This document shows positions 31,638 to 47,407 of a stretch of DNA of 64,000 bases, piece by piece (positions within the stretch are counted from its first letter, which is position 1; each line of letters opens with the position of its first letter). The translations under genes were made by a program, and so were the position numbers. The notes under the pieces were generated by a model that made no database searches, was not told the DNA's origin, and was given only the letters and a program-made list of their open reading frames with translations. The stretch comes from a virus: positions 1 through 64,000 of IMG/VR virus record IMGVR_UViG_3300030104_003872. One strand, written 5' to 3'.

Positions 31638-31876
31638 TAGGCGGAGATATATGGGCTAAATGCGTGATTTATGGCCTTCTATTATATACTAAGGCCGTAT
31701 TTCACCATTTGCTGATATCGGATATTGGTGTTGTCCTTCGGGGCTTCGGACGAAAGCATCTGAACATAACAGGCTAGAATTAGCCTTCCGAATGCTTTGC
31801 CGGACACAAGATGGAAGGCGAATGGAATAAACAAACCAATCGGGCAAATAATCAACATCTGAAAGGTGAAGAAGCA

Positions 31877-32314
31877 ATGGCTAAGGCTAAGGCTAAGGCA
31901 CTATATCAGATGGATGCGGAAGAAGCGATTGCTTCGTTCAATAGTACCCGTGCTGACAACAGTAAGGGATTGGGCAAAGCAATAGTGCATAAGCCCCGAA
32001 TGCGTAAGGCATCCGGCAGTCATGTTATGATTGTTGATTTGTCTAAACTGCCTAAGGGAAGCACGGTTGAACACCATCTAGGCTTGGCAACAAGTAAGGT
32101 GAATGGGAAACCTGCTAAATATGCTTGCGTGTGTCTAACACACAATAGAAGCGTACTATGCACAACACGCCATCAGGCAACCTTCGGGGCAGTCTTTACT
32201 GCCCTTAAGGACGCTAGGACACCGAAGCAACTGATTCAGTCTAAGGGATTTACCCTAACTGATGGAATCGGTTGGTGTGATGGTTGTGTGAAGGCTTCAT
32301 TAGCATCTGTCTGA
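31877..32314 (+). CDS. Small basic Cys/His protein, paralog family member 1
   Basis: Start MAKAKAK after AAAGGTGAA; CVCLTH...WCDGC; distant similarity to 33403, 34261 and 41112 proteins. Confidence 0.75.
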   Translation: MAKAKAKALYQMDAEEAIASFNSTRADNSKGLGKAIVHKPRMRKASGSHVMIVDLSKLPKGSTVEHHLGLATSKVNGKPAKYACVCLTHNRSVLCTTRHQATFGAVFTALKDARTPKQLIQSKGFTLTDGIGWCDGCVKASLASV

Positions 32315-32835: not shown

Positions 32836-32890
32836 AACACGAGACGCCACCCATGATGACGCCTCGCTTACGTTAGTCCTCTGTCTCGAT

Positions 32891-33079: not shown

Positions 33080-33402
33080 TTCATTTCCTCCTATGGGCTT
33101 TCCGCCCTACCTCCTCATGGAAGCCATAGTATATATACTTTGTGTATTTACGACCTCCACCTGAGAACTCTTTCTCGGCTCGGGGTGAGGCCCCCAAAAA
33201 GTAGTGTCGGGGAGAGAGAGGCTCGGGGAGAGGCCCTAAAAGACGCTCTCTCGCCCGGTCCGCCCCCGAGTAGGCGTTTGAGTGCGAGTCGTGATGCCAG
33301 ACCGCCCCTCCGAGATGTCGTGGCTGAGTCGTACGTTTCTCCGGAGACCGCAATGTTTATAACCCCCTACCCCTACAGCGAGGTAGGCCAAGAGGCCGGG
33401 AG

Positions 33403-33750
33403 GTGAAAAATCTGGAAACTGAGAATTACTGGGAGAACTGCGAGAGAAAGACAGGAGCGGCGCTCGGAAAGTTGGGAGTCAAGACCGCCAAGAGTATTGG
33501 CGTAAAAGGAGCATGGACTCTAAAATACCGAGGCAAGGCAAAAATACTCGTTGGTTGCATGAGGAGAGTTGAATCCGAGTGGGCTGACAAGAGTATTCTG
33601 AACGAGAAAAAGGACAGAGTTGCTGAGCACGTTACAGTCTGTGAGCACGGAGTGGCAGTTGGAGCATCCACGAGAAAGGTTGCGATAGAGCTGGCTAAGA
33701 AATCCGAGCACTGGTGCGAGAAGTGTGCCGCGAGAACCGCCGTCCTTTGA
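33403..33750 (+). CDS. Small basic protein, paralog family member 2
   Basis: GAWTLKYRGKA..VGC..HVTVCEHG..VGASTRKVAIELA...WCEKC. Confidence 0.8.
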   Translation: MKNLETENYWENCERKTGAALGKLGVKTAKSIGVKGAWTLKYRGKAKILVGCMRRVESEWADKSILNEKKDRVAEHVTVCEHGVAVGASTRKVAIELAKKSEHWCEKCAARTAVL

Positions 33751-34260
33751 GACGCGACGTAAATCCAATGACCCCCGAAAGGGGCGAGGATGTACTCTCT
33801 GGGGTCACGACTCTCTAGTATTGAGGCTCGACCCTATTTGCACAAAGGTCGGGGGGTCACGACTCCGCCCCTTCTCGACCCTAAACGCACAAAGGTCAGA
33901 AGCCTCCGGGTCCGCCCCAGAGAGAGAAGGCTCGATTCTCACTCATCTTAACCCCTAACCCGAGAACTCGAGCGTTTCTCCGTGTGCGGGCGGGCGAGCG
34001 AGTACTCAAATGTATGACATAAAAGGACCCTGAGCCGACGGGTCACGCCCCACGACTCACTGCTCATCACGACACGCATCTCAGGAGAGGAGCACGTTTT
34101 TTTAGTGGGAGCACAGGTCACCAGAGCCCCCCTACTCTACACGAGCGGACCCTAGAAGGCTTGAGCCCCTCAGGAATCTCGTGGGTGATGAGCTCCGGCA
34201 GGTATTTCTCCCACCAGAGCCTTTACGTCATCTCGAATAACTATCTCGGGGATAGAATAC

Positions 34261-34668
34261 TCAGACGCTCGCATCCTTGATGCTCTGTCTTGATTTCTCA
34301 CACCAGATGTGAGCCAGTTTGCATAGCTCGATTGCTTTCTTTCTCGATGATGCTCCCATCACTGACCCATAGTCTGTGACCGCAACATGAGTTGGTGCAA
34401 CCATCTCGCCATTTACGAGAATGGTCATGCCTTTGGTCGCTTCGGTAACTTGCTCATCCGCGTTCTCCACGAAAATGCAACCGACCCGACATCCAGCCTT
34501 CCTTCTCATCTTCAAAGTCCATGCTCCGGCTCTTCCGATGGTTCTCGCAGTCTTGGCTCCGTCCTTGCCGAGATGTGCTCCAGTTGAAACTGTTGCTCCA
34601 TCCCAATACATGGTCGGGGTTTTCTCTGCTTTACTGCTCTTCTTAGTGCTCTTACTAGTTTTGCTCAT
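34261..34668 (-). CDS. Small basic protein, paralog family member 3
   Basis: GAWTLKMRRKA..VGC..HVAVTDYG..MGASSRKKAIELC...WCEKS. Confidence 0.8.
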   Translation of the reverse strand: MSKTSKSTKKSSKAEKTPTMYWDGATVSTGAHLGKDGAKTARTIGRAGAWTLKMRRKAGCRVGCIFVENADEQVTEATKGMTILVNGEMVAPTHVAVTDYGSVMGASSRKKAIELCKLAHIWCEKSRQSIKDASV

Positions 34669-34902
34669 AAAGTTCTCCTCCTTGTCTCCAATACGTGTCT
34701 CCGAGTCACGGTAAGGTTCTCATTCAATGTCATTCTCATCGTCCGCCCTACATGACCAGATAGAAGTTATAGGATATAAAGTTTTCGGACTCTTGAGTTA
34801 GACCGCCCTCACCGTGAGAGTAGTGGAGAAGTCGTAATGTTTTCACTCGAGTTGTCGATGCCTACGTAAAAGAGAACAGGGAGGCAATTCTCCGCCCCTG
34901 TC

Positions 34903-35331
34903 TCAATCTCTTCTAGTTTGACCATATAGCCGAGATTCAAATGCTTGCTCGGCTTGTTTCTCTAGTCTCTGTACTTCTGCGTGCTCGTCAATTTTCTCTA
35001 GTACCTCTGCCACATCTTTCTCGGCCTGTCTCTTATTGTATATCTCCCAAACTTTGTCGGTTACGTTTCTCTTAACCATTTCTCCGAAGTGTCTCCATTG
35101 TCCCTCGTTTATGATATCTCTAGTCTTGTCATCAGTCAATGACCCAAGACCCATGTGTGATAATTTCTCCATTAGAGAATCTATTACGACCGGACTGTCA
35201 TGGAGTTTATCGTACTCTATTGAGTATATTTTGTCTATCTCATTTATTGTGAGTACGTCATCGGTATTTCTCCGGAGGTCTAATCTCCAACCTCTGCTGA
35301 AATAGGTCCATTTTATCTCAGAGTATGACAC
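34903..35331 (-). CDS. Hypothetical protein
   Basis: 142 aa ORF downstream of a boxed promoter. Confidence 0.6.
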   Translation of the reverse strand: MSYSEIKWTYFSRGWRLDLRRNTDDVLTINEIDKIYSIEYDKLHDSPVVIDSLMEKLSHMGLGSLTDDKTRDIINEGQWRHFGEMVKRNVTDKVWEIYNKRQAEKDVAEVLEKIDEHAEVQRLEKQAEQAFESRLYGQTRRD

Positions 35332-35478
35332 CTATCTCCACCAACAGTCGAAATGTTCAGGCTCAATCGTTTCCTTCTCGGACTTGGTGGCTCCTTTCTT
35401 AACGAGAACCACTCGCCCCTTAAAGAGTTTATTAGCCAACTCTTTTGTTATCTCATATTCATTACTTCTCAATTTCAT
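35332..35478 (-). CDS. Small hypothetical protein (48 aa, not in ORF track)
   Basis: MKLRSNEYEITKELANKLFKGRVVLVKKG...FDCWWR*; AGGTGA RBS; first gene after the 35551 promoter. Confidence 0.55.
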   Translation of the reverse strand: MKLRSNEYEITKELANKLFKGRVVLVKKGATKSEKETIEPEHFDCWWR

Positions 35479-35672
35479 TTCTCTATTTCACCTTTCCTCG
35501 GCCTTCCGGCCTACTCTGAGGATGGAAGTCATAGGATATAAACATTTCTGACTCTTGAGTTGTCGCGTGTAGCGTAATAATTTACTCGAGTTGTCGATGA
35601 CTACACAAAAGGTCTTGCTCTTGACGACTCCGCCCCAACTCTACCGCGTGAGGCAAAGGGGGTATCTCGCAA

Positions 35673-36485
35673 TCACTCGTAATGCGGAGAATCCGCGTAC
35701 TCGTAAAGACCAGTTATAGGTTCGACCTTATAGAAGTGCTCTTTTGCACAGACCCATCCGGTCGGTGTATATCCCTCGGGATAAGTCGAACTAACTGTCT
35801 CGTCACCGCCTAGAGATTCCCAATCCGGCTCCCATTGTGCTCCATTCGCTCGCCTGTCTTTTATCTCTTGTAACCATTGTATTCTCTTAAGTTCTCTGAG
35901 AACGGCATAGGCTTCTCGGAATGTATTAAGTGGTCCGAGGAAAGCATCGTGGCTCACAATAGAGCGATACCATCCGCCCTCCTCTGGTCCGCCGTATGCT
36001 CTTACTTTCTCGTACCTGCTCACATATATTTGGTCGCCGTGATTCTTCTCCCAATAACCTTCCTCGGGGAAGAAATCGTACTCACCTTCTTTGAGCAGAT
36101 ATAGTTTCTCCATACCTGAGCCAGCGTAATGCCATCTCTGATAGTCCCACTGCTCTTTGCGGTACTCGTAAAGTGTAACGAGCCAGTCGCCGTTGATACT
36201 CTGATATTTATCTCCTATTCGCTCAGGAAGACCATTTTCGTCTTGTTCTCTGCAATATTGCTCAAACGCCTGTTGCTCAGTCTGATGTCGAATTCTCTTC
36301 TGCTTGTGCTCACGCCTTGACTCGCTATGCTTTAGGTCATAGACCCAAGCACGAGTGGATAGCAATGTTCTCGCTAAACCGGTCAGTTCTGCATTCTCTT
36401 CAAAACTTCTCTTTTCGTCGTATAATTCTTTCTCTTTCTCGTAATCTGTCATATTTTTCTCACCTCCCTTATGGTCTGACTCCAT
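35673..36485 (-). CDS. Hypothetical protein (Tyr/Trp/Glu-rich)
   Basis: Contains YGGPEEGGWY motif; probable start MTDYEK. Confidence 0.65.
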   Translation of the reverse strand: MESDHKGGEKNMTDYEKEKELYDEKRSFEENAELTGLARTLLSTRAWVYDLKHSESRREHKQKRIRHQTEQQAFEQYCREQDENGLPERIGDKYQSINGDWLVTLYEYRKEQWDYQRWHYAGSGMEKLYLLKEGEYDFFPEEGYWEKNHGDQIYVSRYEKVRAYGGPEEGGWYRSIVSHDAFLGPLNTFREAYAVLRELKRIQWLQEIKDRRANGAQWEPDWESLGGDETVSSTYPEGYTPTGWVCAKEHFYKVEPITGLYEYADSPHYE

Positions 36486-36503
36486 TTCATTGTATTCTCT
36501 TGA

Positions 36504-36860
36504 TTATAACTCATTAACTGCATCTCTTAATTCGACTTCATTGGCTATTCGAGTTGCTTCTCGATGTGCCTTTAATCTCCGGATGTAACTCCTATCTTCT
36601 TTCTCTAATGTATCGAACTCTTCACCTGCGAATCTCGCATAGTTGGTCAATAATGCGTGGAGATTAATACGATGCACTCCGCAACTATATCTCATTAGTT
36701 TTAACGAGTGCCTATCTCCCTTCATGGGAGATGATTGCATCTCTAATAGTTCGACCTGTAAGTCAAACTCTTTCATTTTCTCTAGTAACTCTTTCTGTAA
36801 CTCAACTGCTCTAATCATAGAGTTTATGAGTTCCATTTCTTCATCCTCCGTTTCCGCCAT
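36504..36860 (-). CDS. Hypothetical coiled-coil protein (leaderless)
   Basis: ATG about 23 nt after the TATA of the boxed promoter at 36898. Confidence 0.65.
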   Translation of the reverse strand: MAETEDEEMELINSMIRAVELQKELLEKMKEFDLQVELLEMQSSPMKGDRHSLKLMRYSCGVHRINLHALLTNYARFAGEEFDTLEKEDRSYIRRLKAHREATRIANEVELRDAVNEL

Positions 36861-36989
36861 GTAGAGGTATAGGGGTTCTAGGTATTAAACCTTTCTAACT
36901 CCTGAGTATCCTCAGAGAATGATAGATTTACTCGAGTTGTCGATGGGTTGGTAAAAGAGAATAGGATTGTGAATCTCCGCCCCACACGA

Positions 36990-37466
36990 CTAGTAATTAA
37001 AATCGGTCAGGGGAAAGTCATTCTCTTCGACTATCCTTTCGTTGTTCTCAAAGAACTTCCTCACATGCTCAAGACCTATCAGATGGGCTCTACCGGACTT
37101 ACTTCTATTGTCGATAACTGATGGGTCATCTGCAAACTGCTCGTTCAGTATGCTCAGATATAATCTCTTAGCCACATCATACTCTTGAGGTTTCCATAAT
37201 AAGACCTCTTCTGTCTCGACATATCTTTGCTCAGTTCTAAATCGAGTGTTGATTCGCTCTAATTGCTCATCATCCATGATTTCTCTGCTTCTGAGCAGAA
37301 TAAAACCATGCTCATGATGACCTAGTTCCTCGTCATAACTCTTATTCACAGACCATATTAAATCTCTTAATTCAGATTTCTCTTCACCAGTTCTGCTCAT
37401 CCATGAACGAGCAAGTGATTGTGGTGTCGTGTGTCGCCACTCTGTACGTGACCTGACCAAAATCAT
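36990..37466 (-). CDS. Hypothetical protein
   Basis: 158 aa ORF in a minus-strand cluster. Confidence 0.55.
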   Translation of the reverse strand: MILVRSRTEWRHTTPQSLARSWMSRTGEEKSELRDLIWSVNKSYDEELGHHEHGFILLRSREIMDDEQLERINTRFRTEQRYVETEEVLLWKPQEYDVAKRLYLSILNEQFADDPSVIDNRSKSGRAHLIGLEHVRKFFENNERIVEENDFPLTDFNY

Positions 37467-37546
37467 CCTGTCCTCTGATATTTTATACTCGTATTCGTCT
37501 ATCTCTATTCACCTCCTTTAGACTCCAAATCTCCCATCTATGAATC

Positions 37547-37885
37547 TCATTGCAGAGAACTTTCCTTCTCTTGCTTTTGCATCTCGTACATCATCTTTCT
37601 CCCTTCTATACGAGCCTTCCACATAGAGATACCAAAACTCATTGCTTGTTGTCTCTTTTCCATATCCTCATCAAACGGGTCCATACCCATTCTCGCGGGT
37701 AAGACCATAGTGGCGTCGCATAAGTCGCAACATCTCGAATCGAAATCTTTTGGGTCAGCAAGGAGTGGGTAGGGATTATTACCCATGTATTCTCCGGTCT
37801 TGAATAATAACTCGTTGGTATGAGGGTGTCTTGGTCCCTTAATCTCTTTCTTACAGAGACAACACTTAAGATTACTCTTCCTCAT
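37547..37885 (-). CDS. Zn-binding hypothetical protein
   Basis: CCLC...GNNPYPL...RCCDLCD. Confidence 0.65.
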   Translation of the reverse strand: MRKSNLKCCLCKKEIKGPRHPHTNELLFKTGEYMGNNPYPLLADPKDFDSRCCDLCDATMVLPARMGMDPFDEDMEKRQQAMSFGISMWKARIEGRKMMYEMQKQEKESSLQ

Positions 37886-38069
37886 CGTTGATTGCTCCTT
37901 CTAATAGTCGTCGAATGACACTAGGGTCAATAGCAGACTCTTTGATAAGAGCCATAAACTCTTCGGCCGTTTGACCTGTTGCTACCGTTTCGCCTGTCTC
38001 TTTGCTTACAACTCTGAATAAAGGAGCATCCGCACCCGCATTCTCTGTCTCTACATCAATTACGGTCAT
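37872..38069 (-). CDS. Small acidic hypothetical protein
   Basis: Coupled to 37885 gene; GGAG RBS. Confidence 0.55.
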   Translation of the reverse strand: MTVIDVETENAGADAPLFRVVSKETGETVATGQTAEEFMALIKESAIDPSVIRRLLEGAINDEEE

Positions 38070-38390
38070 ACTTATGCACTCCTAGCCTCATACTGTTTTT
38101 TGGTCAGTCCATACCTTCTCAGGTAATATTTGTCGTTCATCTCTTCAATCATATTTCTCATCTTGTTGCTCATCTTCTATTCGCTCCTGTTTCATGTGGG
38201 CTCGCCACGCTAATATCTCTATATGTATTTTACTCATCTACTTTCCTCCTTATCCTTAAATACTCATGGCAGGGCTCGCAAAGAGTTGCACTCTCACCTG
38301 CCCGACCTGAATGGAAATCAGTCGGCATATTACCGACAACCCACCATGACTCGGCATGGAATAAGTCGTCACCACATTGGTCGCAATAGG

Positions 38391-38522
38391 TCATTCTAAA
38401 TCATACTCCTCATATACCCACTCTGGGGTTTCTAGTCGAAACTTGAATCTGGTCACCAAGAGTTTATTCCGTAGTCGGGAATACTTAACTCGGGTGATGT
38501 TTCCATCGTCGCCGTCCGCCAT
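38391..38522 (-). CDS. Small hypothetical protein (43 aa, leaderless, not in ORF track)
   Basis: MADGDDGNITRVKYSRLRNKLLVTRFKFRLETPEWVYEEYDLE*; directly after the 38560 boxed promoter. Confidence 0.5.
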   Translation of the reverse strand: MADGDDGNITRVKYSRLRNKLLVTRFKFRLETPEWVYEEYDLE

Positions 38523-38715
38523 ATCTACCAATTATCGTCTTAGGATATAAAGGTTTTGGACTCTTGAGTTATGGTGTATTTTAACTCGAGTTGTAGGTTA
38601 TAGTAGTAAAAGGTTCGGTAGAGCACTACTCCGCCCCAACTCAAGAGTTGGAAAGGTTTATATTCTAGTTAGATGATTCCCTCATGTAGCGGAAGCACAG
38701 GAGACATCAGATAAA

Positions 38716-39417
38716 ATGAGTGAAAATGAAAACAGAGTAATTGAACAAGAGACAGAGCGTGAAGCAGGTAAGAGTATAACCCTGACCTTCACACCTATCG
38801 GAGCAATCATAGATTCCGAGAAAGAAAGCAAAGTACAAGAGCAAGATGAAAATGCAGACCTGTTCTTTATGAGAAGTATCAACACGACCTTCGGGTTCAA
38901 GATGTTGAGAAACTCATGGGATAGTGAGCACGACATCAAAGCAGGAGCAACTGAGACTAATACCAAGAGTACAAATGGACTAAGAATCGGAGATACAACC
39001 GTGACGAGTTTCATAACATCAGAGTTGGAGTGGTTCAAAGAGGCACTAATGCCTCTGCTTATCGACCAAAGTGATGTGGAGATAATCCAGACCACTAAGG
39101 AAGAGATAGTAATAGTTGAGCCACTAGGCAGATACGAGCACTTCGGTTGGGACGAGACACCAGAGTGGGCTGATGAAAGAGTAACCCTCGAATACATCGA
39201 CCTTCGTAATGGTAAGGCCTCTATTCTCGTACAAGGCGAGACAGGTTCTGACCTTCAAGGGGATGAGGTGAACGAGGCAGTTAAGGGCTACCACGATATG
39301 CTTATGAGTACCATCAGAAGTATGACCTGCACAGACGAGAATGAATATAGCAGAGATTGTAAGAGTTTGCTTAAAGTGGAGTCTCATAGAGTTTGCGACA
39401 CATCCTTCTTGAATTGA
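38716..39417 (+). CDS. Acidic hypothetical protein
   Basis: 233 aa, Glu/Asp-rich; boxed promoter at 38639. Confidence 0.7.
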   Translation: MSENENRVIEQETEREAGKSITLTFTPIGAIIDSEKESKVQEQDENADLFFMRSINTTFGFKMLRNSWDSEHDIKAGATETNTKSTNGLRIGDTTVTSFITSELEWFKEALMPLLIDQSDVEIIQTTKEEIVIVEPLGRYEHFGWDETPEWADERVTLEYIDLRNGKASILVQGETGSDLQGDEVNEAVKGYHDMLMSTIRSMTCTDENEYSRDCKSLLKVESHRVCDTSFLN

Positions 39418-39535
39418 GTTCTTTGGGGGAGAGAACTTCGTAAGCCTCGGCGTGGGTAAATCTCACGCTGAGGTGAAACATCTTATGCTCTCAGTAGGAG
39501 GAACGATAGGATGACAGACCTGAAACTTCGAGGGG

Positions 39536-40735
39536 GTGATGAGAATGTCAGATGAAAGAGGATTAATACCTTACTCTAACAAAGAAGAGATGATTCTCGC
39601 TATGCAAGATTTGTCGGATGAAATGCTTAAGGTAGGTCACGATAATGTGGAAGAGTTCCTAGCACTCGTAAAACAAGAGATGTGGGATAGAGAACACGCT
39701 ATGGTGGTCACATACAATGAAGAGTTCAAAGAAAAGTGGGCTCATGTATTCGACTTATTTAACGAAGGTTGGTCTATATTAAGAGAACTATACCAAATAT
39801 GCGAGGACTATGATGGAGATAATAATTTTATCACAGAGAAGAATGAGCATCCGAATTATCCTCATTGCGAGTTAGAAAAGGCTTGGGTCGTAAGATACGA
39901 GTCATTTTTAGCAAGAGCAAAAGATATGCCTAGTCGTGGTTATACACATGAGGGACCATATGGAACTCTAGTATTCAGAGAAGAATATCTAAAAGAGTTG
40001 GATTTAGAGTCTTATTGGGCGACTACATATTCAACGGAGATAGCAAGGAGATTGGAGCCTAAAGAGAAGGACTTAAAGTATGGTCTTACTTTTGCTCATT
40101 ATCCTACAGACCCTTTCAAAGAGGAAGAGGAATACATCGAAGATTGGAGCAGATACAAATATGTTAGAGATACTAAGATAGAGGCCTTTGATAAAGTCGT
40201 ATATTTCTTGAGAAATGTTATGGTTAAGTCGGAGACAAAGGATATAAGACCTTCACAAAACGACGATTGGAAAACCAATGAGCTCAAACACTATAATCTC
40301 GAAACACATCAGTTAGAGAGACCTTTAGAGTGGAAGATAATAGAGGATGAGCAGATAGTGGGTGCTATTTACGGTAGAGGTAGGAGCGATAATAAATATG
40401 CGACTTGTTTCGACTGTGATGAAAATGGTCGAAATAGATTAGCCGTGAGAACATATTACGAGCGTGGGTATCAAGAGATGCCAGGAGCTCCTGTTCATGC
40501 TACATGCGAGTACTTTACTTGTATGAGATGTGGAAGTGAGCGTAAAGGTGGAGAACATGGAGATTTCCCTGTTGGTGGAGTTGACTTAATAGGTCAGCCA
40601 CTCTTTGCAGGTATGAGCACAGAAGAAGTATGTCGTCAATGCTCATGTTATACTACCAAACAGTACGGTGGTAGCGGAGAACGAGGAAGCGATAGGGAGT
40701 GTTGGGCTTGCTATGGAGAACCCGGTCATTACTAG
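39536..40735 (+). CDS. Hypothetical protein with C-terminal Cys clusters
   Basis: CFDC, CMRC, CRQC and CWAC motifs. Confidence 0.7.
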   Translation: MMRMSDERGLIPYSNKEEMILAMQDLSDEMLKVGHDNVEEFLALVKQEMWDREHAMVVTYNEEFKEKWAHVFDLFNEGWSILRELYQICEDYDGDNNFITEKNEHPNYPHCELEKAWVVRYESFLARAKDMPSRGYTHEGPYGTLVFREEYLKELDLESYWATTYSTEIARRLEPKEKDLKYGLTFAHYPTDPFKEEEEYIEDWSRYKYVRDTKIEAFDKVVYFLRNVMVKSETKDIRPSQNDDWKTNELKHYNLETHQLERPLEWKIIEDEQIVGAIYGRGRSDNKYATCFDCDENGRNRLAVRTYYERGYQEMPGAPVHATCEYFTCMRCGSERKGGEHGDFPVGGVDLIGQPLFAGMSTEEVCRQCSCYTTKQYGGSGERGSDRECWACYGEPGHY

Positions 40736-41111
40736 ACAGGTCTGGTGGTAGAGATACCGCCATTCCTCTCACTCTAAGATAAAAGAAAAGAGCGCTCCTC
40801 TCTCCGCCCCTTGAGAGAAGAAGGTGGTGGGTCTAGATTGCAGTATGCCTACCCAGCAATGTCTCCCCGACCCACCGAAAGGAGTATTAGGTGGAGGCTT
40901 ATCCGACTTGTTACCGCCTGTTTTAGACTCACTTCCTCGTTGCATTTCTGCCTCTTTCGAGATAAGGGTAGTGTGCGGCTCGGTTACGGTTTGGTCTACC
41001 ACCTGTTTATGTAGACTCGCCCCCTTTTTGTATGCTCCGTCATGTACCCGTTCTCATGGTGGACGGAGCCACACCATGTGGTCGTTTCGTGCGGAAGAAC
41101 GCTCGAATTGT

Positions 41112-41591
41112 CTAAGCAGTCGCTTTAACTTCTGTCTCTGTGACTTCTGTCTCAGCCTCTGCCGTTGCTTTAGCCTCTTCCTCGGCTTTCGCCTTAGCCT
41201 CGGCTAATTTCTCCACTATCTTTTGAGCCTTGTTGCTCCATGTGGCCGGATGTCTCGCTAGTTCGAGTGCCTTTTTCCTTGAAGTTGCTCCGTGCTTCTG
41301 GAGAATCTTCATTTTTAGGTCTTTTGCTCCCTTTTCGTGAGTTCCTGTGATAACGACTGTATGCTTGTCTGGTCTGTTACAGATAGGCTCGTCAGATGCC
41401 TCGGTTAAGTAAATTCTCACTTGCATACCTCCAATCTCCTGACAACCCTTCTCACGCCACAATCCTCTGATGCCGTAAAGGTCAACATTAGAGTGTCCGT
41501 GTGTTTCTGTATCTCCCTTAGACCACTTTGGGATAGGTTTCTCATCTTCTGTGGTCTTTGATTCTGATTTAGTCTCTTTCTTTGTGCTCAT
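41112..41591 (-). CDS. Small basic protein, paralog family member 4
   Basis: HTVVI...HGATSRKKALELARHPATWS; Ala/Glu/Lys tail; GAGGTGA RBS; boxed promoter 41674. Confidence 0.75.
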   Translation of the reverse strand: MSTKKETKSESKTTEDEKPIPKWSKGDTETHGHSNVDLYGIRGLWREKGCQEIGGMQVRIYLTEASDEPICNRPDKHTVVITGTHEKGAKDLKMKILQKHGATSRKKALELARHPATWSNKAQKIVEKLAEAKAKAEEEAKATAEAETEVTETEVKATA

Positions 41592-41884
41592 AACATTTCA
41601 CCTCCTCGGGGTTTCGCAGTCCTCCCGCTTCGCATATCTACAACTACATTTATCTAGTATATATAATGTTCTAACTCTTGAGTTGTGCTTGAGTTGTAGC
41701 CTACTGCCTTACTACTAGAGTAGATACTACGCGTGTAGTGAGTGAGTGCTCTTATTATTGGTAAAAGATTCGGTAGAGGTATTCTCCCGCCCGTAACTCG
41801 TGAGATGGAAACATTTATGTGCCGTCAAGATATATTAGTAGATATGTACGGTACGACGATAAGTTTTACACAGGAGGCTGAATA

Positions 41885-42313
41885 ATGAAATGCGAGGCAA
41901 TGGGGTGCGACAGCGAGGCTACGCTTATGTGTCACCAGAGTTACTTATGCGAGGGTTGTGGTGTTGAGATGGCGAAGGCGACAGGCCACGATACTCAACC
42001 TATTATACTGTCGTCTGTACTCAAAACTATGAGTGAAGAAGAAAAGGAGTTTCTTGACCCACTTACTGTTCTTGTCGATGACGAAGAGCATGACCACCGC
42101 ACATTTGATTTACAAGATGTCGGTACAATTGACCACATAGTACCTACTAATGGTTTGACCATATTCCATGAGCCTATTGTCATGGCGAGGTGCGTTCATT
42201 GTGAGGCATACGCTATCGGTCATATCAACAAGGTAGGAGGTTGGTTCGCGAGACACCAACACTACCACACGCACGCAGAGGCAAATGATGACGACTTTGC
42301 CATGCCGTCGTGA
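41885..42313 (+). CDS. Cys/His-rich hypothetical protein
   Basis: C..GC...LCEGC; CVHC...HQHYH. Confidence 0.65.
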   Translation: MKCEAMGCDSEATLMCHQSYLCEGCGVEMAKATGHDTQPIILSSVLKTMSEEEKEFLDPLTVLVDDEEHDHRTFDLQDVGTIDHIVPTNGLTIFHEPIVMARCVHCEAYAIGHINKVGGWFARHQHYHTHAEANDDDFAMPS

Positions 42314-42376
42314 GTTCAAAAACTTTATATCCTAGAATTAATTATTGGTAGTATAGCGGAAGCGGAGGAAAGTATA

Positions 42377-42943
42377 ATGAGCAAATCAGCCGAAGAAGAG
42401 TTAATAGAAGAGTGGAAAGAACCAGAGCAACCAATGGATTATCTGATTCGACAACAAGAGAATGCTATCACGCAGACCAAGTATCTATTCTACAAACTCT
42501 ATGATAAGAGTGACAAAGGATGGAGTGACGAGCAGAAAGAAGAGTGGGGTAATCATATCGACGAAAACGGTTTCCGCAAGTCGGAGTTATTCCAAGAAGT
42601 ACCTGCTCAACACAGATATGTGGTCGCTATACCAGAGACAGGCGAGTGGAAATCATTTAAGACTCGTTCCGAGGTAACACAAGACCGGCAAGGTGGAGCA
42701 ATGTACCCCTATGCTAAGTGGTCTAAGCACGAGTCAGCCCGAATGGAGGCCTATGGTGCTATGAAACTCATGAGTTTAGCGTGTTCTAAGGTCTTACCTG
42801 AGAACTGTGATGACGAGCAAGCGTATTTACGACCTTCCGACATTGAAAGAGTTGCACTTATCCTATTAGAGATTGACGCAGAGCGAAGGGAATTATCAGA
42901 GTATTACGATGAGTTAGCCCAAGAATTAGAGGTTTCAGCATGA
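42377..42943 (+). CDS. Hypothetical protein
   Basis: 188 aa; coupled to the helicase gene (ATGA overlap). Confidence 0.65.
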   Translation: MSKSAEEELIEEWKEPEQPMDYLIRQQENAITQTKYLFYKLYDKSDKGWSDEQKEEWGNHIDENGFRKSELFQEVPAQHRYVVAIPETGEWKSFKTRSEVTQDRQGGAMYPYAKWSKHESARMEAYGAMKLMSLACSKVLPENCDDEQAYLRPSDIERVALILLEIDAERRELSEYYDELAQELEVSA

Positions 42944-44571
42944 GTATTGAAGAAGAGAACCTTCCAGTTAGAGTTTCAGAAAGACTCAAGGAATTGAGTG
43001 ACACGAAAAGAAGTGAAATGAGCCTATATCTCTGGCAAGAAGGAGCAATACAGGCTTGGTCAGGCAACGGAGTTGCACGTGACCCTATTTCTGATAAACC
43101 TCTAGATGGTGATAAAGAGTTCTTTGGTATTGTCTCAGCCGTGACCGGTTCTGGAAAGACCTATGTTGCATCAGAGTGTGCGTGGGTCTGGTTACAGAAG
43201 AACCCAACCGGTAGAGTAACCGTATTGGTCCCGTCAAGAGCATTACAGAATAAGTGGAGAAAAGACATGGCCGGAGCGTTCCCCCACATGAGAATAGGTA
43301 TGATGGGTGGTGGTAGAAGAGATTTCCGACAAATATCAATAGTGACCATGAATACGGCCGCTAAAGGTCTTCCAGAGACAGACGGTGAGCATCTTATCAT
43401 TGTAGATGAGTGCCATAATATCGGTTCAGAGTTTCGACAATATGCTATTCGTAATAATTCTCATACTGCGGTATTAGGTCTTAGTGCAACTCCAGCGAGG
43501 GAAGATAGCGGTTTGACCGTTGTATCACACCTATGCGGTCCGGTCGTTTATCAATACAAGTATGACCAAGCACTCAACGACGATGTTATTATCCCGTTTA
43601 GAGTTAGGGCGGTTGCAGTTCCTCTAACCCATATGGAGCGTTCAGAATATGAAGAGATTACAAATCAGATTAGGAAAATCTCTTTCATCCTCCGTAAGCG
43701 ATATGGAGCAGGTACAAATTGGTTTGCACTCAAACAAGACCCATCAGACCCCGATACTGCTTTGACCACGTTCAAAGACCTATGTATGAAGCGTAAGAGA
43801 CTTGTAAATGAGTGTCATCTAAGATTCGAGTGCGTTGATGATATATTGAGGTTACACGAGAACAGTAAGACCATGATATTTCACGAGCGTATCAAACAAA
43901 TAGAGTGGATGCACGATAAATACCGAGGCCTATGTCCAGAGACAATACCAAATTGCGAGGACACATGGGAAGAAGTCGCTTTGACCCCACCGGACTGTTC
44001 CGAGTGGTTAGGCATGAATCCAGAGTTATATCACGGTGATATGACCAAAGGGGAAAATGATAGAGCGTTTGAGGCATTTGCCGAGGGCGATGCTAGTATT
44101 CTCTTGTCATGTAAGGCTCTTCGTGAAGGAGTTGATGTACCCTCGTGCGACTTAGGTATTATGGTGAGTGGTACTAATTCCGCTCGTGCTAGAGTTCAGA
44201 CACTTGGTCGTTGCTTGAGACGTGGAGAAGGTAAAACAGGAGCGATTGTATATTTACTCTATGTCCCAAATACGACTGATGCGAAAGGACTCGCTAATCT
44301 CAAATATGGTGGAAAACTACCCGACGGTACTATCGAATGGTGGAGATACACCCCCAACAAAGGTCTAGTTAAGTATGGTGAGGAAGAGCAACCCGAAATA
44401 CCTAAGAGGAAACCAAAAGCCGAGAAGAAGAAACATATATGTGACTCGTGTCATAAGGTCTTTCATACGGAGTCAGCATCGTTGTCAGAGAACCACCATT
44501 GCTATCCTCGATTAACCAAGACAGGTCGAAAGCCTATTGACCTTTGGGGTGATATGATTGGTCGAAAGTGA
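42940..44571 (+). CDS. Superfamily 2 helicase (XPB/Rad25-like DExH)
   Basis: Q motif (LYLWQ), TGSGKT, DECH, SAT, EGVDVP and QTLGRCLR. Confidence 0.9.
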   Translation: MSIEEENLPVRVSERLKELSDTKRSEMSLYLWQEGAIQAWSGNGVARDPISDKPLDGDKEFFGIVSAVTGSGKTYVASECAWVWLQKNPTGRVTVLVPSRALQNKWRKDMAGAFPHMRIGMMGGGRRDFRQISIVTMNTAAKGLPETDGEHLIIVDECHNIGSEFRQYAIRNNSHTAVLGLSATPAREDSGLTVVSHLCGPVVYQYKYDQALNDDVIIPFRVRAVAVPLTHMERSEYEEITNQIRKISFILRKRYGAGTNWFALKQDPSDPDTALTTFKDLCMKRKRLVNECHLRFECVDDILRLHENSKTMIFHERIKQIEWMHDKYRGLCPETIPNCEDTWEEVALTPPDCSEWLGMNPELYHGDMTKGENDRAFEAFAEGDASILLSCKALREGVDVPSCDLGIMVSGTNSARARVQTLGRCLRRGEGKTGAIVYLLYVPNTTDAKGLANLKYGGKLPDGTIEWWRYTPNKGLVKYGEEEQPEIPKRKPKAEKKKHICDSCHKVFHTESASLSENHHCYPRLTKTGRKPIDLWGDMIGRK

Positions 44572-44801
44572 GAAAATACATAGATGCGACTTAGAGATTA
44601 TTGGTTTTGATTATGACCAAAAGAAATGGGAGGTCACAGAACACCTCCGATGTAAAGAGTGCGGTGCTAGAGCAACAAAGATAGTAAAAGAGGTATATGT
44701 TCTTGACTCTTACTCAAAAAATATTAAGACATAGCCGGTAGCGACGTCTACTTGACTCAAGAGTCAGCAATGTTTATATCCTAGTTTGATATTTTGGTAG
44801 T

Positions 44802-46034
44802 ATGGCGAAAGACGGAGGCTTCGGAAGAAGCATGAGCAAGGAAAAGCGTAAAGAGTTTGAGCGTCAACTTGCTGATGAGTTCATTGAGAAAATAAAAAGT
44901 GGCGATGTCGGTGCTTGGAGTTCAGGTTGGACCAACTTAGGAGGCAATACTATGCCTCATAATACAAAAGGTCGCCCATATAGAGGTATAAACACAATAA
45001 TTCTCTGGCTTAGAGGTTCAGATTATAACTCTAATACATGGGGTACTTATCACTCTTGGAAAGAGGTTGCGAGGAAACACGCAATAAAAGAGGGTAAGTT
45101 TGAGTTAAAAATCGGTAGAGATGGAAAACCATACAAGCATACGACTGAGTGGTATGGAGTAAAGCAAGGAGAAAGCGGTACAAGCATTATTCTCTGGAAA
45201 CCACTCACATACAAGAACGAGAAAACCAATAAAAAGACAGGTGAGATAGAAGAGTCTATCGGTATGACCATGTTAATGCGAGTATTTACAGTATTCAATC
45301 GTGACCAGACAGGATTACCTGAGATTATTACAGAAACAGAGTTAGAAGAAGCAGAAGAGTTCAACAGTAGAGAAAAACAATTAGAAAACTGCCTCAATTG
45401 GTACATTGAGAACCCAAATCGTAAGGTGGTCAAGACTGGTGAGATGCTAGTACATCCTCATCCGAAGGCAGGTGAGAAACATACAGGTGAAGACCCTATA
45501 TGGGTCGTAAAAGATGGTGATATTATTCTCAAACACGGCGGAGATAGAGCGTTCTATACATCTAGCAGAGATAGGATAGCACTTCCTCTTCGTGAGCAAT
45601 TCAAAGAAAATGCGAGATACCTATCTACTAAAGGGCATGAGATTATCCATAGTACAGGTCACCCACTTCGACTTAATCGTGCTCTTGGTAATAGATTCGG
45701 GAGCGAAGATTATGCTAAGGAGGAATTGATTGCCGAGTTCGGTACTGCCTTTCTCATAGGCTCATTCGGCATACAGGGAGAACTTCGTAATGTTGAGTAT
45801 ATCAATAATTGGGCTTCGGTCTTGAGTAAAGAACCTAGATTCCTCATTACTGCGGCTCAAAGAGCACAAAAAGCAGTTAATTATGTACTCGAACCTTGGG
45901 TAGAACACGAGGCATGGCGTGACCAAGAAATAAATGACTTAAGAGAATATCTTGAGGGCAAAGAAATACAAATTACTCCTATGGGTCTTAACAGATTACA
46001 CGGAGATTTATCAGTTATGGAGGAAGAAGAATGA
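44802..46034 (+). CDS. ardC: ArdC-like antirestriction protein (DUF1738 ssDNA-binding + zincin-like domain)
   Basis: YRGIN.IIL, WGTY..W, VFNRDQT, AFY....DRIALP...F, HEIIHSTGH..RLNR, YAKEELIAE. Confidence 0.85.
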   Translation: MAKDGGFGRSMSKEKRKEFERQLADEFIEKIKSGDVGAWSSGWTNLGGNTMPHNTKGRPYRGINTIILWLRGSDYNSNTWGTYHSWKEVARKHAIKEGKFELKIGRDGKPYKHTTEWYGVKQGESGTSIILWKPLTYKNEKTNKKTGEIEESIGMTMLMRVFTVFNRDQTGLPEIITETELEEAEEFNSREKQLENCLNWYIENPNRKVVKTGEMLVHPHPKAGEKHTGEDPIWVVKDGDIILKHGGDRAFYTSSRDRIALPLREQFKENARYLSTKGHEIIHSTGHPLRLNRALGNRFGSEDYAKEELIAEFGTAFLIGSFGIQGELRNVEYINNWASVLSKEPRFLITAAQRAQKAVNYVLEPWVEHEAWRDQEINDLREYLEGKEIQITPMGLNRLHGDLSVMEEEE

Positions 46035-46104
46035 GTAAAAAGAAATTGAGTAAAGATGGGTTAGAGATATTTGAGTTCAAACTACCATCAAAGGAGGAAG
46101 AAGA

Positions 46105-46248
46105 ATGAGTTATAAGATATTGAGATTTAGATTTGAAGGAAAAACAAGAGTAATAAAAAGAGGATTGACACTCGAAGAAGCCCAAGAGCATTGCCGTGAC
46201 CCAAAAACAAGTGGAGATGGTTGGTTCGACGGTTATACGGAGGAATAA
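46105..46248 (+). CDS. Small hypothetical phage protein (47 aa, not in ORF track)
   Basis: MSYKILRFRFEGKTRVIKRGLTLEEAQEHCRDPKTSGDGWFDGYTEE*; GGAGG RBS. Confidence 0.6.
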   Translation: MSYKILRFRFEGKTRVIKRGLTLEEAQEHCRDPKTSGDGWFDGYTEE

Positions 46249-46249
46249 A

Positions 46250-46406
46250 TATGGCTATGAGCAGAAAACATTATAGAGTAATAGCAGAGGCAATAAGAAC
46301 AAACGACGATAAGAGGAAAATGATACTAGAACTCAGTATGTTTTTCAAGGAGGATAATCCTAATTTTAACTTGAGTAAGTTTTTGGAGGCGTGTCATTTT
46401 GAGTGA
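46250..46406 (+). CDS. Small hypothetical phage protein
   Basis: MAMSRKHYRVIAEAIR...DNPNFNLSKFLEAC; GGAGG RBS; start approximate. Confidence 0.6.
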
Positions 46407-46584
46407 ATACAAGAAGTGCAACGAGACACAACACGAATGGACTCGACAAGACATGGATGATAGCGAGTTCGATAAATTATCATTGACCTACCATTGTTTG
46501 CATTGCGGAGCAACGTGCGAGATGGAGGGTGATGTAAGGACAGATGATGGTAGGTTCATAGAGTGGGTGCTGACCGATGAGTAA
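46399..46584 (+). CDS. Small Zn-ribbon-like protein
   Basis: C...HEW...CLHCG. Confidence 0.55.
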   Translation: MSEYKKCNETQHEWTRQDMDDSEFDKLSLTYHCLHCGATCEMEGDVRTDDGRFIEWVLTDE

Positions 46585-47068
46585 TTGGTACTGTGGCGAC
46601 CCTTGTTATGTTATACACGACGAAAGATGGGGAGAGTTTTGTAATAAACTCTTTGCACACCCTAGTTATGAGAAAAACAACTACCCAATTGGTATAGAGT
46701 GGGAAGTCGATGGGAAAAAATACGAATTAGAGATATGGGGTTCTCCCGGAGGCGACGGGGTCTGGCGTTTTAGTGCAGGAGAACTTGGAGTTGATGCGGG
46801 ATTACTTTCTATCATTCCGGTAGAGTGCCTTGACCCTCAAGAGGCACCATTCGACAGACTAGGTATTATGTTCGAGGAAAAGCCAGTACTCGATGCCGAC
46901 TATAATGAGGGTAAAGTATGGTTAAATGGAGAACTAGATAATGATTGGGTCATGTGCGATTGTGGAGAAATGCAAAGGACAGAGCAGATTTGGGATTGTG
47001 AGCATTGTTTTAGTGCAGAGTGCGACAACTGTTACCCATGTTGCGACGGAAATGGTGAAGAGGAATGA
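46577..47068 (+). CDS. Hypothetical protein
   Basis: YCGDPCY and GVDAGLLSI motifs, Cys-rich C-terminus. Confidence 0.65.
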   Translation: MSNWYCGDPCYVIHDERWGEFCNKLFAHPSYEKNNYPIGIEWEVDGKKYELEIWGSPGGDGVWRFSAGELGVDAGLLSIIPVECLDPQEAPFDRLGIMFEEKPVLDADYNEGKVWLNGELDNDWVMCDCGEMQRTEQIWDCEHCFSAECDNCYPCCDGNGEEE

Positions 47069-47280
47069 GTAAGATGAATTGTGGATGCGAGTTTGATGAA
47101 GTAGAGTTGGATGAGCGTGTGTTAGGCGAGGCTTGTGGTTGCTCATCATGTCTGGACTGTGGACTCATCAACACACAAGACCCTAATCCTCAGAATTGGA
47201 AATGCTACCCCGACCACCCATGTTCCTGTGACTAACTCAAGAGTTACAAATGTTTATGTACTAGTTAGCGTTAGGTGTAG

Positions 47281-47392: not shown

Positions 47393-47407
47393 TCAAGGAG
47401 ATTTAAT

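What the first reader, a model, noticed from the sequence alone, without database searches (positions are those of the whole stretch)
33338..47260. Eleven-promoter regulon with a palindromic ACTC-NN-GAGT box fixed 8 nt upstream of TATA
Seen: boxes at 33338, 34789, 35551, 36898, 38560, 38639, 41674, 41796, 42306, 44755 and 47235, on both strands. Each is separated from a TTTATA-like box by exactly 8 nt, for example ACTCAAGAGT-cagcaatg-TTTATAT. Structural and replication promoters lack the box, and so does the gene in the GAG-free segment. Established: archaeal activators often bind just upstream of BRE/TATA. Inference: a dimeric activator, possibly made from the GAG-free segment, switches on this whole region including the SF2 helicase and ArdC genes.
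Basis: partly seen in the sequence, partly recalled or inferred. Interest (0 to 1): 0.82.

Follow-up and report, generated by a model that had tools for sequence, protein, structure and literature searches.

The report
Shared palindrome box in viral promoters
A marine archaeal tailed virus and its close relatives place the same short palindrome (CTC-NN-GAG) exactly 8 bases upstream of the TATA box in about a dozen promoters of their accessory and anti-restriction genes, which marks one co-regulated gene set whose regulator is still unknown.

Summary
All 11 listed sites exist and each lies exactly 8 nt from a TATA-like heptamer. Eight are exact ACTCNNGAGT. 33338 and 41796 keep only the CTC-NN-GAG core, and 42306 keeps only the right half.

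Under local Markov models, box plus N8 plus TATA occurs 7 times against about 0.01 expected. The module is A-CTC-aa-GAG-T, then an 8-nt BRE-like spacer (G at -6, A at -3), TTTATAT, about 22 nt, and (AT)GGCGGA. Nothing is conserved upstream of the box.

The module recurs in every close relative recovered (TerL 80% identity or more). CTCNNGAG sits at that one offset beside 47 of 216 TATA heptamers. It is absent from more distant relatives, one of them complete, and from 185,579 prokaryote genomes beyond chance.

Metatranscriptome contigs cover only box-driven genes in 31-50 kb. One starts 2 nt after a predicted start site and ends at a T-run.

The closest known parallel is the virus-specific regulatory sequence around strong early or anti-defence promoters of Sulfolobales viruses. 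No magrovirus paper checked analyses promoters. The binding factor and its sign are unresolved. This scan noted the same stretch before, read in another window; that follow-up was withheld.

The parts
33338..33362 (+). Promoter P1. Box variant TCTCCGGAGA, N8, TTTATAA. Drives 33403-33750 (family F).
   Evidence: The orthologue in L089 has TCTCCAGAGT. RNA contigs cover 33438-33656.
34774..34798 (-). Promoter P2. ACTCAAGAGT, N8, TTTATAT. Drives 34261-34668 (family F).
   Evidence: The RNA contig 34511-34732 stops 15 nt short of the predicted start at about 34747.
35536..35560 (-). Promoter P3. ACTCAAGAGT, N8, TTTATAT. Drives 35332-35478 and 34903-35331.
   Evidence: An auxiliary ACTCGAGT lies 31 nt upstream.
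36883..36907 (-). Promoter P4. ACTCAGGAGT, N8, TTTAATA. Drives 36504-36860 and 35673-36485.
   Evidence: An RNA contig covers 36323-36504.
38545..38569 (-). Promoter P5. ACTCAAGAGT, N8, TTTATAT. Drives the small-ORF operon 38522 down to 36990.
   Evidence: Box and TATA are identical in G1 while the flanks differ.
38639..38663 (+). Promoter P6. ACTCAAGAGT, N8, TTTATAT. Drives 38716-39417.
   Evidence: RNA contigs start at 38691 and 38700, against a predicted start at 38689. They end at 39423, in the T-run 39419-39424.
41659..41683 (-). Promoter P7. ACTCAAGAGT, N8, TATATAT. Drives 41112-41591 (family F).
   Evidence: Conserved in G1 and G2. RNA contigs cover 41158-41586 and 40977-41140.
41796..41820 (+). 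Promoter P8. Weak box ACTCGTGAGA, N8, TTTATGT. Drives 41885-42313.
   Evidence: The G1 and G2 orthologues keep BRE, TATA and initiator but have no box (TGTAGCGACT).
42306..42330 (+). Promoter P9. Half box CGTCGTGAGT, N8, TTTATAT. Drives 42377-42943 and the SF2 helicase 42940-44571.
   Evidence: The box is kept in G1 and the region is replaced in G2.
44755..44779 (+). Promoter P10. ACTCAAGAGT, N8, TTTATAT. Drives ArdC (44802 or 44832 to 46034) and small Cys-rich ORFs up to 47235.
   Evidence: Box, TATA and initiator are identical in G1 and G2 while the flanks diverge.
47235..47259 (+). Promoter P11. ACTCAAGAGT, N8, TTTATGT. Drives 47408-47758 and following ORFs.
   Evidence: Conserved in G1 and G2; G2 has a second copy.
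33133..33158 (-). Its box has decayed to GGTCGTAAAT. TATA is TATATAT and the initiator is GTAGGGCGGA. It lies upstream of ORF 32891-33079.
   Evidence: Orthologues in L081 and L083 carry ACTCCAGAGT and GGTCGAGAGT.
31811..32314 (+). Box-less unit next to TerL (family E, 167 aa, pI 9.7). Candidate source of the box-binding factor.
   Evidence: Present only in box-bearing relatives. Weak C-terminal similarity to family F (hhalign probability 40%). No Pfam, PDB or Atlas match.
34261..34668 (-). Representative of family F, with paralogues at 33403-33750(+) and 41112-41591(-). Basic Cys/His proteins, each behind a box promoter. Candidate autoregulated factor.
   Evidence: AlphaFold model with pLDDT 85.6 and no fold match.

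Best explanation
The box is the regulatory half of a composite promoter shared by the accessory and anti-defence gene block (33.1-48 kb) of a group of marine archaeal tailed viruses.

The core (BRE-like AGAAA, TTTATAT, initiator GGCGGA about 24 nt downstream) is read by the host's TBP, TFB and RNA polymerase and looks strong on its own. The 8-10 bp palindrome A-CTC-NN-GAG-T abuts the BRE. If transcription starts at the conserved ATG/GGCGGA, it is centred near -42.5. I read it as the binding site of one small dimeric DNA-binding protein, probably virus-encoded, that switches all of these promoters together.

The direction I favour is that the promoters fire at once with host factors alone and the factor then turns them down by hindering TFB at the adjacent BRE. 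This is what is proposed for Aca-controlled early promoters of Sulfolobales viruses.

Shown here:
- the motif, its fixed spacing and its conservation;
- its restriction to one viral clade;
- RNA contigs over its genes in a metatranscriptome library.

Inferred, not shown:
- that a protein binds the box;
- which protein it is (families E and F are the leading candidates);
- the sign of regulation.

The generic claim, that this is a protein-bound cis-element defining one regulon, I put at about 0.8. The specific shut-off reading I put at about 0.4.
For: 1. Enrichment and fixed spacing.
-.
- CTCNNGAG sits at offset -17 from the TATA start at 47 of 216 unique TATA heptamers in the virus and its relatives. 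No other offset within 45 nt has more than 4.

2. Sharp module edge.
- No conservation (0.3 bits or less) upstream of the box, so it is not simply part of a long duplicated segment.

3. Purifying selection.
- Box and TATA are identical between G0, G1 and G2 at five orthologous promoters while flanks are 66-78% identical.
- The module precedes unrelated cargo genes in L155 and L163.

4. Strong core.
- TTTATAT, with G at -6 in 22 of 29 sites and A at -3 in 25 of 29.
- These are the features PMC11065993 cites for strongest TFB binding.

5. The core survives loss of the box.
- This is seen at the 41796 orthologues in G1/G2 and at 33133-33140(-) in G0.

6. Cargo resembles early anti-defence genes.
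- ArdC (ArdcN plus the metallopeptidase domain), an SF2 helicase, and many small acidic or Cys-rich ORFans with high turnover.

7. Transcripts.
- In 31-50 kb, RNA-library contigs lie only on box-driven genes.
- One unit runs from 38691 to 39423, against a predicted start at 38689 and a T-run at 39419-39424.

8. Virus-specific distribution.
- 53 single hits spread across unrelated taxa in 185,579 species genomes, which I judge to be about chance level.
- Present in G006 (6 sites) and G007 (8 sites); absent from G008 (complete), G009 and G010.

9. Auxiliary CTC-N0-2-GAG palindromes lie upstream of about a third of the boxes.
Against: - No DNA-binding protein has been tied to the box. Pfam finds no TFB, TBP, RHH or AbrB domain in the virus. 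The only clear HTH (62860-63144) also occurs in box-less relatives.
- Families E and F have no known fold. A relative of F is fused to ribosomal protein uS3, which points to RNA or the ribosome rather than to promoters.
- From my own knowledge of Ptr2, GvpE, TFB-RF1, TrmBL1 and SurR, archaeal factors that bind wholly upstream of the BRE are mostly activators. The strict 8-nt phasing also fits an activator that contacts TFB or TBP.
- Timing is unknown. The RNA data are assembled contigs from a field sample, without strand or time, and DNA carry-over in the library cannot be excluded.
- The BRE strength rule comes from Sulfolobus and may not hold in this host.
Confidence: 0.4

Rival explanations
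1. Upstream activating site. A dimeric activator binds the box directly upstream of the BRE and recruits TFB or TBP, switching on the accessory block. The activator would be either the product of the box-less 31811 unit, made first, or a host factor.
For: - The box lies entirely upstream of the BRE with invariant 8-nt phasing. That matches the geometry of known archaeal activators (GvpE, Ptr2, TFB-RF1; my own knowledge).
- A separate, box-less, conserved unit sits next to TerL. Its basic product occurs only in box-bearing viruses.
- A distinct box-less promoter class in the replication module suggests temporal classes.
Against: - The core promoters are near consensus and persist without the box in two lineages.
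- An anti-restriction gene (ArdC) that depends on a newly made activator would be expressed late for its task.
- No RNA contig was seen over 31811 in the run where box genes reach depth 7-23.
- The 31811 product has no DNA-binding signature.
- There is no sign of a host regulon with this module.
Confidence: 0.33
2. No dedicated factor. The box is kept by common descent and gene conversion among duplicated promoter cassettes, or it is an extended core element that improves binding or bending by the general machinery.
For: - The whole module from -47 to +8 is similar among promoters, including the spacer length and the initiator.
- Within one genome the central pair is uniform (AA in G0, G1 and G2), while other genomes show GT, CT or CA, as concerted evolution would give.
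- Intergenic repeats that carry promoters are known in the tailed halovirus HF2 (PMC8707807).
Against: - The palindromic core CTC/GAG is invariant (49-53 of 53 at each position), while the spacer and the sequence between TATA and initiator vary freely.
- Symmetry is not expected of an element read by asymmetric TFB and TBP.
- The box is retained across viruses whose cargo genes share no nucleotide similarity.
Confidence: 0.12
3. DNA-modification or restriction-related site. The CTC/GAG half-sites are targets of the virus's own methyltransferase-like enzymes or of a host nuclease, and the box couples promoter activity to modification state.
For: - GAG/CTC is depleted in most of the genome (about 0.5 of expectation) but about 2-fold enriched in 32-50 kb.
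- CTC-N0-2-GAG palindromes number 26 in this 16.3 kb and 5 in the other 56.7 kb.
- The virus encodes an N6/N4 DNA methylase.
- Earlier notes of this scan propose that GAG is modified (unchecked leads).
Against: - Nothing here shows that any base is modified.
- The exact phasing to the TATA is not explained by a modification site alone.
- The box variants do not fit one restriction-type recognition sequence. CTYRAG fits only the AA and CG centres.
Confidence: 0.05

Closest known systems
Virus-specific consensus regulatory sequences of early / anti-defence genes in Sulfolobales viruses (Bhoobalan-Chitty et al., Nat Commun 2024, PMC11065993)
   Same: - Many promoters in one viral genome share a strong BRE/TATA core plus virus-specific flanking sequence.
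- The regulatory sequence is far better conserved than the small accessory genes behind it.
- Inverted repeats next to or over the BRE are read there as sites for a viral repressor (Aca8 wHTH, or a leucine-zipper protein).
   Different: - That work covers only crenarchaeal rod, filament and spindle viruses and Thermoprotei contigs.
- Here the virus is a marine tailed virus with archaeal-type replication genes.
- The palindrome lies wholly upstream of the BRE at one fixed distance.
- No Aca8 homologue or other HTH is attached to the regulon.
- Early timing is not shown here.
Intergenic repeats carrying promoters in halovirus HF2 (PMC8707807)
   Same: A tailed archaeal virus with repeated intergenic modules that contain AT-rich promoter elements (abstract).
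   Different: - HF2 repeats are 58-bp and 29-bp whole-repeat classes.
- I read only the abstract, so I cannot say whether a short palindrome at a fixed distance from the TATA is described there.
Archaeal upstream activator sites abutting the BRE (GvpE-UAS of haloarchaeal gas-vesicle promoters, Ptr2, TFB-RF1); my own knowledge, not checked in papers here
   Same: Position directly upstream of the BRE and sensitivity to spacing.
   Different: - Those sites serve weak core promoters and known activators.
- Here the core is near consensus, survives loss of the box, and no factor is known.
Phage middle-promoter activators that bind a dyad at about -43 (Mu Mor and C; T4 MotA box); my own knowledge
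   Same: One short motif at a fixed position defines a temporal promoter class of a tailed virus.
   Different: Bacterial sigma-70 machinery. There is no sequence or protein relation.

Membership tests
Archaeal BRE/TATA core promoter | AT-rich TATA box of about 7-8 bp with a purine-rich BRE directly upstream | tested here: met
   TTTATAT-like heptamer at all 11 sites. The spacer consensus is y-m-G-A-A-A-n-g, with G at -6 in 22 of 29 sites and A at -3 in 25 of 29.
Archaeal BRE/TATA core promoter | Transcription start about 22-27 nt downstream of the TATA | tested here: inconclusive
   - A conserved GTAG..(AT)GGCGGA lies 22-24 nt after the TATA.
- RNA contigs begin at 38691 and 38700 against a predicted 38689, and end at 34732 against a predicted 34747.
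- These are assembled contigs without strand, so they give only a weak hint.
Archaeal BRE/TATA core promoter | The host is an archaeon | tested here: inconclusive
   - RFC-type clamp loader (RCF1-5 lid and Rad17 domains).
- Head-tail module, with a weak portal match below the Pfam cut-off and a TerL match above it.
- Marine metagenome source.
- The magrovirus label comes from earlier notes; I did not confirm it by marker phylogeny.
- TerL has no close named relative in the phage collection.
Early / anti-defence gene regulatory sequence (PMC11065993) | Several promoters of one viral genome share a conserved sequence around a strong BRE/TATA | tested here: met
   11-12 promoters in G0. In the fetched loci, 3-8 sites each in seven relatives and 1-2 in the shorter fragments.
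Early / anti-defence gene regulatory sequence (PMC11065993) | Downstream genes are small, poorly conserved accessory or anti-defence genes | tested here: met
   - ArdC (E 2.5e-34 and 6.5e-23) and an SF2 helicase.
- Most of the rest are ORFans of 43-270 aa without Pfam or PHROG function.
- Homologues are patchy among relatives.
Early / anti-defence gene regulatory sequence (PMC11065993) | Expression immediately after infection, followed by repression | not testable with these tools
   Only field metatranscriptome contigs are available. There is no time course.
Early / anti-defence gene regulatory sequence (PMC11065993) | The regulator gene itself sits behind the motif and is shared by motif-bearing genomes | tested here: inconclusive
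   Family F fits the pattern: it is always box-driven, occurs in all box-bearing records and is absent from box-less ones. DNA binding is not shown, and a relative is fused to ribosomal protein uS3.
Archaeal upstream activating site (Ptr2 / GvpE / TFB-RF1 type) | Binding site directly upstream of the BRE | tested here: met
   The box ends where the 8-nt BRE-bearing spacer begins, at every site.
Archaeal upstream activating site (Ptr2 / GvpE / TFB-RF1 type) | The promoter depends on the site because its core is weak | tested here: not met
   The core is near consensus. Box-less orthologues keep BRE, TATA and initiator. This is sequence inference only.
Archaeal upstream activating site (Ptr2 / GvpE / TFB-RF1 type) | An identified activator protein | tested here: inconclusive
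   No Lrp-, bZIP- or HTH-type protein is linked to the regulon. The 31811 product is only a phyletic candidate.

The most novel reading that the evidence does not exclude
The box is read by a new kind of archaeal-virus transcription factor. This would be the basic Cys/His proteins of family E (31811) and family F (33403, 34261, 41112). Their confident predicted fold matches nothing solved. They occur only in box-bearing viruses. One relative is fused to the C-terminus of a marine archaeon's ribosomal protein uS3. E would fire or F would feed back on the whole anti-defence block.

A more speculative extension: because the half-sites are the CTC/GAG words that the rest of the genome avoids, binding might also depend on viral DNA modification, which would give a replication-coupled switch.
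Probability: 0.15. Interest if true: 0.75.

Novelty: new member of a known kind. Interest (0 to 1): 0.55.

Why it matters
These marine archaeal viruses and their hosts are uncultured, and most genes in this block have no annotation.

- **A sequence handle on the accessory genes.** The promoter signature CTC-NN-GAG-T, N8, TTTATAT gives a way to pick out the co-regulated, probably early and anti-defence, genes of this virus group from metagenomes. The same logic found new anti-CRISPR and anti-toxin genes in Sulfolobus viruses.
- **A defined target for experiments.** It gives a concrete DNA site for finding the first transcription regulator of this virus group.
- **A testable temporal program.** The second promoter class (CCTTATAAG) seen in the replication module gives a two-class model that can be tested against diel or time-series metatranscriptomes.

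Tried and rejected
- **Bacterial promoter reading.** Rejected. The box does not fall at a -35 position relative to any -10-like hexamer. The replication genes are of archaeal type, and the TATA-to-initiator distance fits archaeal initiation.
- **Cruciform or hairpin.** Rejected. The arms are 4 bp with a 2-nt centre, too short to be stable.
- **Restriction-type site.** CTYRAG fits only boxes with AA or CG centres. Variants with GT, CT or CA centres do not fit.
- **Virus-encoded TFB or TBP.** No match.
- **RHH or AbrB regulators.** No match.
- **Host regulon.** A strict box-TATA scan of 185,579 species genomes gave 53 singletons in unrelated taxa, none labelled Poseidoniales and no contig with more than one hit.
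- **The 31811 product as a clear paralogue of family F.** hhalign probability is 0.15% against the small alignment, 11% against the larger one, and 40% profile against profile, over the C-terminal 44 columns only. It stays a hint.
- **Fold of family F.** No PDB match: Foldseek E 0.38 or worse, VIA Z 4.5 or less. The Atlas gave nothing.
- **PHROGs on ten regulon proteins.** Only families of unknown function.
- **tRNA and Rfam.** Nothing relevant.
- **Closed or wasted calls.** P0003 has no locus in IMG/VR. One paper search was wasted on too loose a setting.
- **Parts of 31-50 kb without RNA contigs.** These are not evidence of silence.
- **Six IMG/VR single hits** (L008, L009, L010, L012, L014, L016). 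Five are the same unrelated sequence and the sixth (L012) is another unrelated sequence. None has the module, so I count them as chance.

Full report
**What the window is**

The window is bases 1-64000 of a 75,290-bp IMG/VR virus record. About 100 nt at its two ends repeat each other, so it is complete or circularly permuted.

Annotated features:
- A head-tail module: a weak portal match at 26809-28224(-), below the Pfam cut-off, and TerL at 29932-31434(+).
- An RFC-type clamp loader, an N6/N4 DNA methylase and a PD-(D/E)XK nuclease.
- An SF2 helicase at 42940-44571 and ArdC at 44802-46034.

TerL has no close named relative in the phage collection. The source is marine. Earlier notes of this scan call it a magrovirus. 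I did not test that label. The archaeal-type replication genes and the promoter anatomy below agree with an archaeal host.

**The observation**

Exact ACTCNNGAGT occurs 10 times against 0.91 expected. Eight of these are listed sites. The other two (12735, 42766) lie inside ORFs and have no TATA.

The other three listed sites are degenerate: 33338 (TCTCCGGAGA), 41796 (ACTCGTGAGA) and 42306 (CGTCGTGAGT).

Read in promoter orientation, all 11 are followed by exactly 8 nt and then a TATA-like heptamer.

The region 32.7-49 kb is itself rich in GAG/CTC, about 3-fold over the rest of the genome. I therefore simulated Markov-3 and Markov-5 sequences trained on that region:
- 9 boxes observed against 0.9-1.2 expected;
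- 7 box + N8 + TATA observed against 0.007-0.017 expected.

**Anatomy**

The module continues downstream: TTTATAT, then usually CCTA, then about 15 variable bases, then GTAG-TAT-GGCGGA. After that come a GGAGG-like ribosome-binding site and the start codon.

A logo of 29 sites shows:
- no conservation in the 30 nt upstream of the box (0.3 bits or less);
- a sharp onset at A-CTC-aa-GAG-T;
- a spacer y-m-G-A-A-A-n-g.

G at -6 and A at -3 from the TATA are the features that PMC11065993 cites for the strongest TFB binding.

If transcription starts at the conserved ATG/GGCGGA, the box spans about -47 to -38 and its dyad lies near -42.5.

At three promoters the ATG at that point is in frame with the ORF (36860, 38522, 44802). 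Leaderless alternative starts are therefore possible.

Five minus-strand promoters carry a larger upstream cassette. It contains a second palindrome, acaACTCGAGT, 12-54 nt upstream of the box. Further upstream lies GGGGCGGAG-N16-18-CTTTTAC.

**Conservation**

Sources of relatives:
- Two IMG/VR contigs (G1, 51.7 kb; G2, 23 kb) are syntenic at 66-85% nucleotide identity.
- TerL-based relatives: L079-L097.
- A metagenome scan found two further near-complete genomes, of 76.4 and 75.7 kb.

What they show:
- In G1 and G2, box and TATA are identical at the orthologues of 38560, 38639, 41674, 44755 and 47235, while the flanks change.
- The relatives with TerL at 80% identity or more and enough flanking sequence carry the same module. 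Variants include GCTCGTGAGT, GGTCGAGAGT, TCTCAAGAGT and ACTCCTGAGT.
- L155 has four box promoters in 2.8 kb and no nucleotide similarity to this virus, although one of its genes is a family F protein.
- I also selected modules by TATA plus GTAG only, without reference to the box. Of 77 unique modules, 53 have CTC-NN-GAG at that one position. CTC and GAG are each invariant or nearly so. T follows GAG in 49 of 53, and A precedes CTC in 34 of 53.
- Among 216 unique TATA heptamers, CTCNNGAG sits at offset -17 in 47. No other offset has more than 4.

Where the module is absent:
- More distant relatives (TerL 56-67%) have none. One of them, 73.8 kb, is complete.
- The strict module is at about chance level in 185,579 species genomes.

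**A second promoter class**

In the replication and modification module, a different box-less element precedes genes at 57188, 59602, 62799, 66253 and 68493. It is aat-CCTTATAAG, followed by a start codon 15-48 nt downstream (about 21 nt at 59602 and 66253). It also suggests temporal classes.

**Transcripts**

Two marine metatranscriptome runs from the same sample as a DNA run hold parts of the region. Within 31-50 kb their contigs lie only on box-driven genes:

| RNA contig | Depth | Gene or unit |
|---|---|---|
| 33438-33656 | up to 7.5 | 33403-33750 (family F) |
| 34511-34732 | 7.9 | 34261-34668 (family F) |
| 36323-36504 | 8.2 | junction of 36504-36860 and 35673-36485 |
| 38691 or 38700 to 39423 | 23 and 10 | 38716-39417 |
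| 40977-41140 | 10.8 | downstream of 41112-41591 |
| 41158-41586 | 14 | 41112-41591 (family F) |

The DNA run gives scattered contigs of depth 2-4.5, apart from one chimeric contig that matches only about 19 nt on each side. The 38716 unit starts 2 nt after the predicted start (38689) and ends in the T-run 39419-39424. No RNA contig crosses a box or a TATA.

These are contigs without strand. DNA carry-over cannot be excluded. Uncovered parts prove nothing.

**Who binds the box**

Negative results:
- No TFB, TBP, RHH or AbrB domain is detectable in the virus.
- The one clear HTH (62860-63144) also occurs in box-less relatives.

Most regulon proteins are acidic (pI 4-5.3). The strongly basic ones are mainly family F (33403, 34261, 41112) and the 31811 product, family E; two short ORFs (35332-35478 and 46221-46406) are also basic.

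Family F:
- It is rare: 13 relatives among 1.8 billion representatives.
- It has a conserved Cys/His pattern.
- Its model is confident (pLDDT 85.6) but matches no solved fold.
- It is always box-driven.
- It is found in every box-bearing record and in no box-less one.
- One relative is the C-terminal extension of a marine archaeal ribosomal protein uS3. That argues for an RNA or ribosome role.

Family E:
- It has the same phyletic pattern as F.
- It sits in a box-less unit next to TerL.
- It shares only a weak C-terminal motif with F.

Neither family can be called a transcription factor on this evidence.

**Direction of regulation**

For activation:
- The position is wholly upstream of the BRE.
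- The phasing is strict.
- A separate unit exists that could be expressed first.

For shut-off:
- The core is near consensus.
- Two promoters of the family have lost the box yet keep BRE, TATA and initiator across diverged genomes. These are the 41796 orthologues in G1/G2 and 33133-33140(-) in G0.
- The cargo includes an anti-restriction gene that should be expressed first.
- There is a published parallel in Sulfolobales viruses. There, strong early promoters with virus-specific flanks are thought to be repressed by Aca8 or a leucine-zipper protein.

My estimates are shut-off 0.40, activation 0.33, no dedicated factor 0.12, and a modification-linked site 0.05.

**Known or new**

The two magrovirus papers I searched contain no promoter or TATA analysis. 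The kind of thing is known from crenarchaeal viruses (PMC11065993) and, as promoter-bearing repeats, from halovirus HF2 (PMC8707807). It is a virus-specific regulatory sequence shared by accessory or early promoters.

This is a new member of that kind, in a marine tailed archaeal virus group. It has a distinct, sharply defined operator and field transcript support.

Noticed in passing
window 33403-33750(+), 34261-34668(-), 41112-41591(-): A rare paralogous family of basic Cys/His proteins. It has 13 relatives among 1.8 billion representatives and a confident predicted fold with no PDB match. One relative (P0008, TARA mesopelagic) is fused to the C-terminus of an archaeal ribosomal protein uS3.
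   Followed up: partly
window 57188, 59602, 62799; L023 2253 and 4493 (genome 66253 and 68493): A second, box-less promoter class, aat-CCTTATAAG, lies in front of replication and modification genes, with a start codon 15-48 nt downstream (about 21 nt at 59602 and 66253).
   Followed up: partly
window 32741, 33264, 33869, 33916, 34896, 35634, 36981, 38635, 40808, 41792 (all minus strand): A polar element, GGGGCGGAG-N16-18-CTTTTAC. In five cases it lies 60-110 nt upstream of a minus-strand box promoter and is followed by acaACTCGAGT. Its function is unknown.
   Followed up: partly
window 32752-32820: A tandem repeat of about 14 nt (GAGAAAAAGGTCnG, 4-5 copies) in the ORF-poor, GC-rich stretch 32.7-33.3 kb.
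   Followed up: no
window 32000-50000 against the rest of the genome: GAG/CTC is about 2-fold over expectation here and about 0.5-fold elsewhere. CTC-N0-2-GAG palindromes number 26 in 16.3 kb here and 5 in the other 56.7 kb.
   Followed up: partly
window 33133-33158(-): A further promoter of the same cassette family with a decayed box (GGTCGTAAAT). Orthologues in L081 and L083 still carry the box.
   Followed up: yes
window 36860, 38522, 44802: The ATG of the conserved initiator (ATGGCGGA), about 22 nt after the TATA, is in frame with the downstream ORF at three promoters. Leaderless and Shine-Dalgarno-led starts may coexist.
   Followed up: no
genome 1-100 and 75190-75290: The two ends of the record repeat each other over about 100 nt, although IMG/VR classes the record as linear. 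This is either a terminal repeat or a circular assembly.
   Followed up: no
L096 (IMGVR_UViG_3300037963_001991): A box-less distant relative has (GA)n/(CT)n runs (21 overlapping 9-mers) and a recurrent GTATTAAGT.
   Followed up: no
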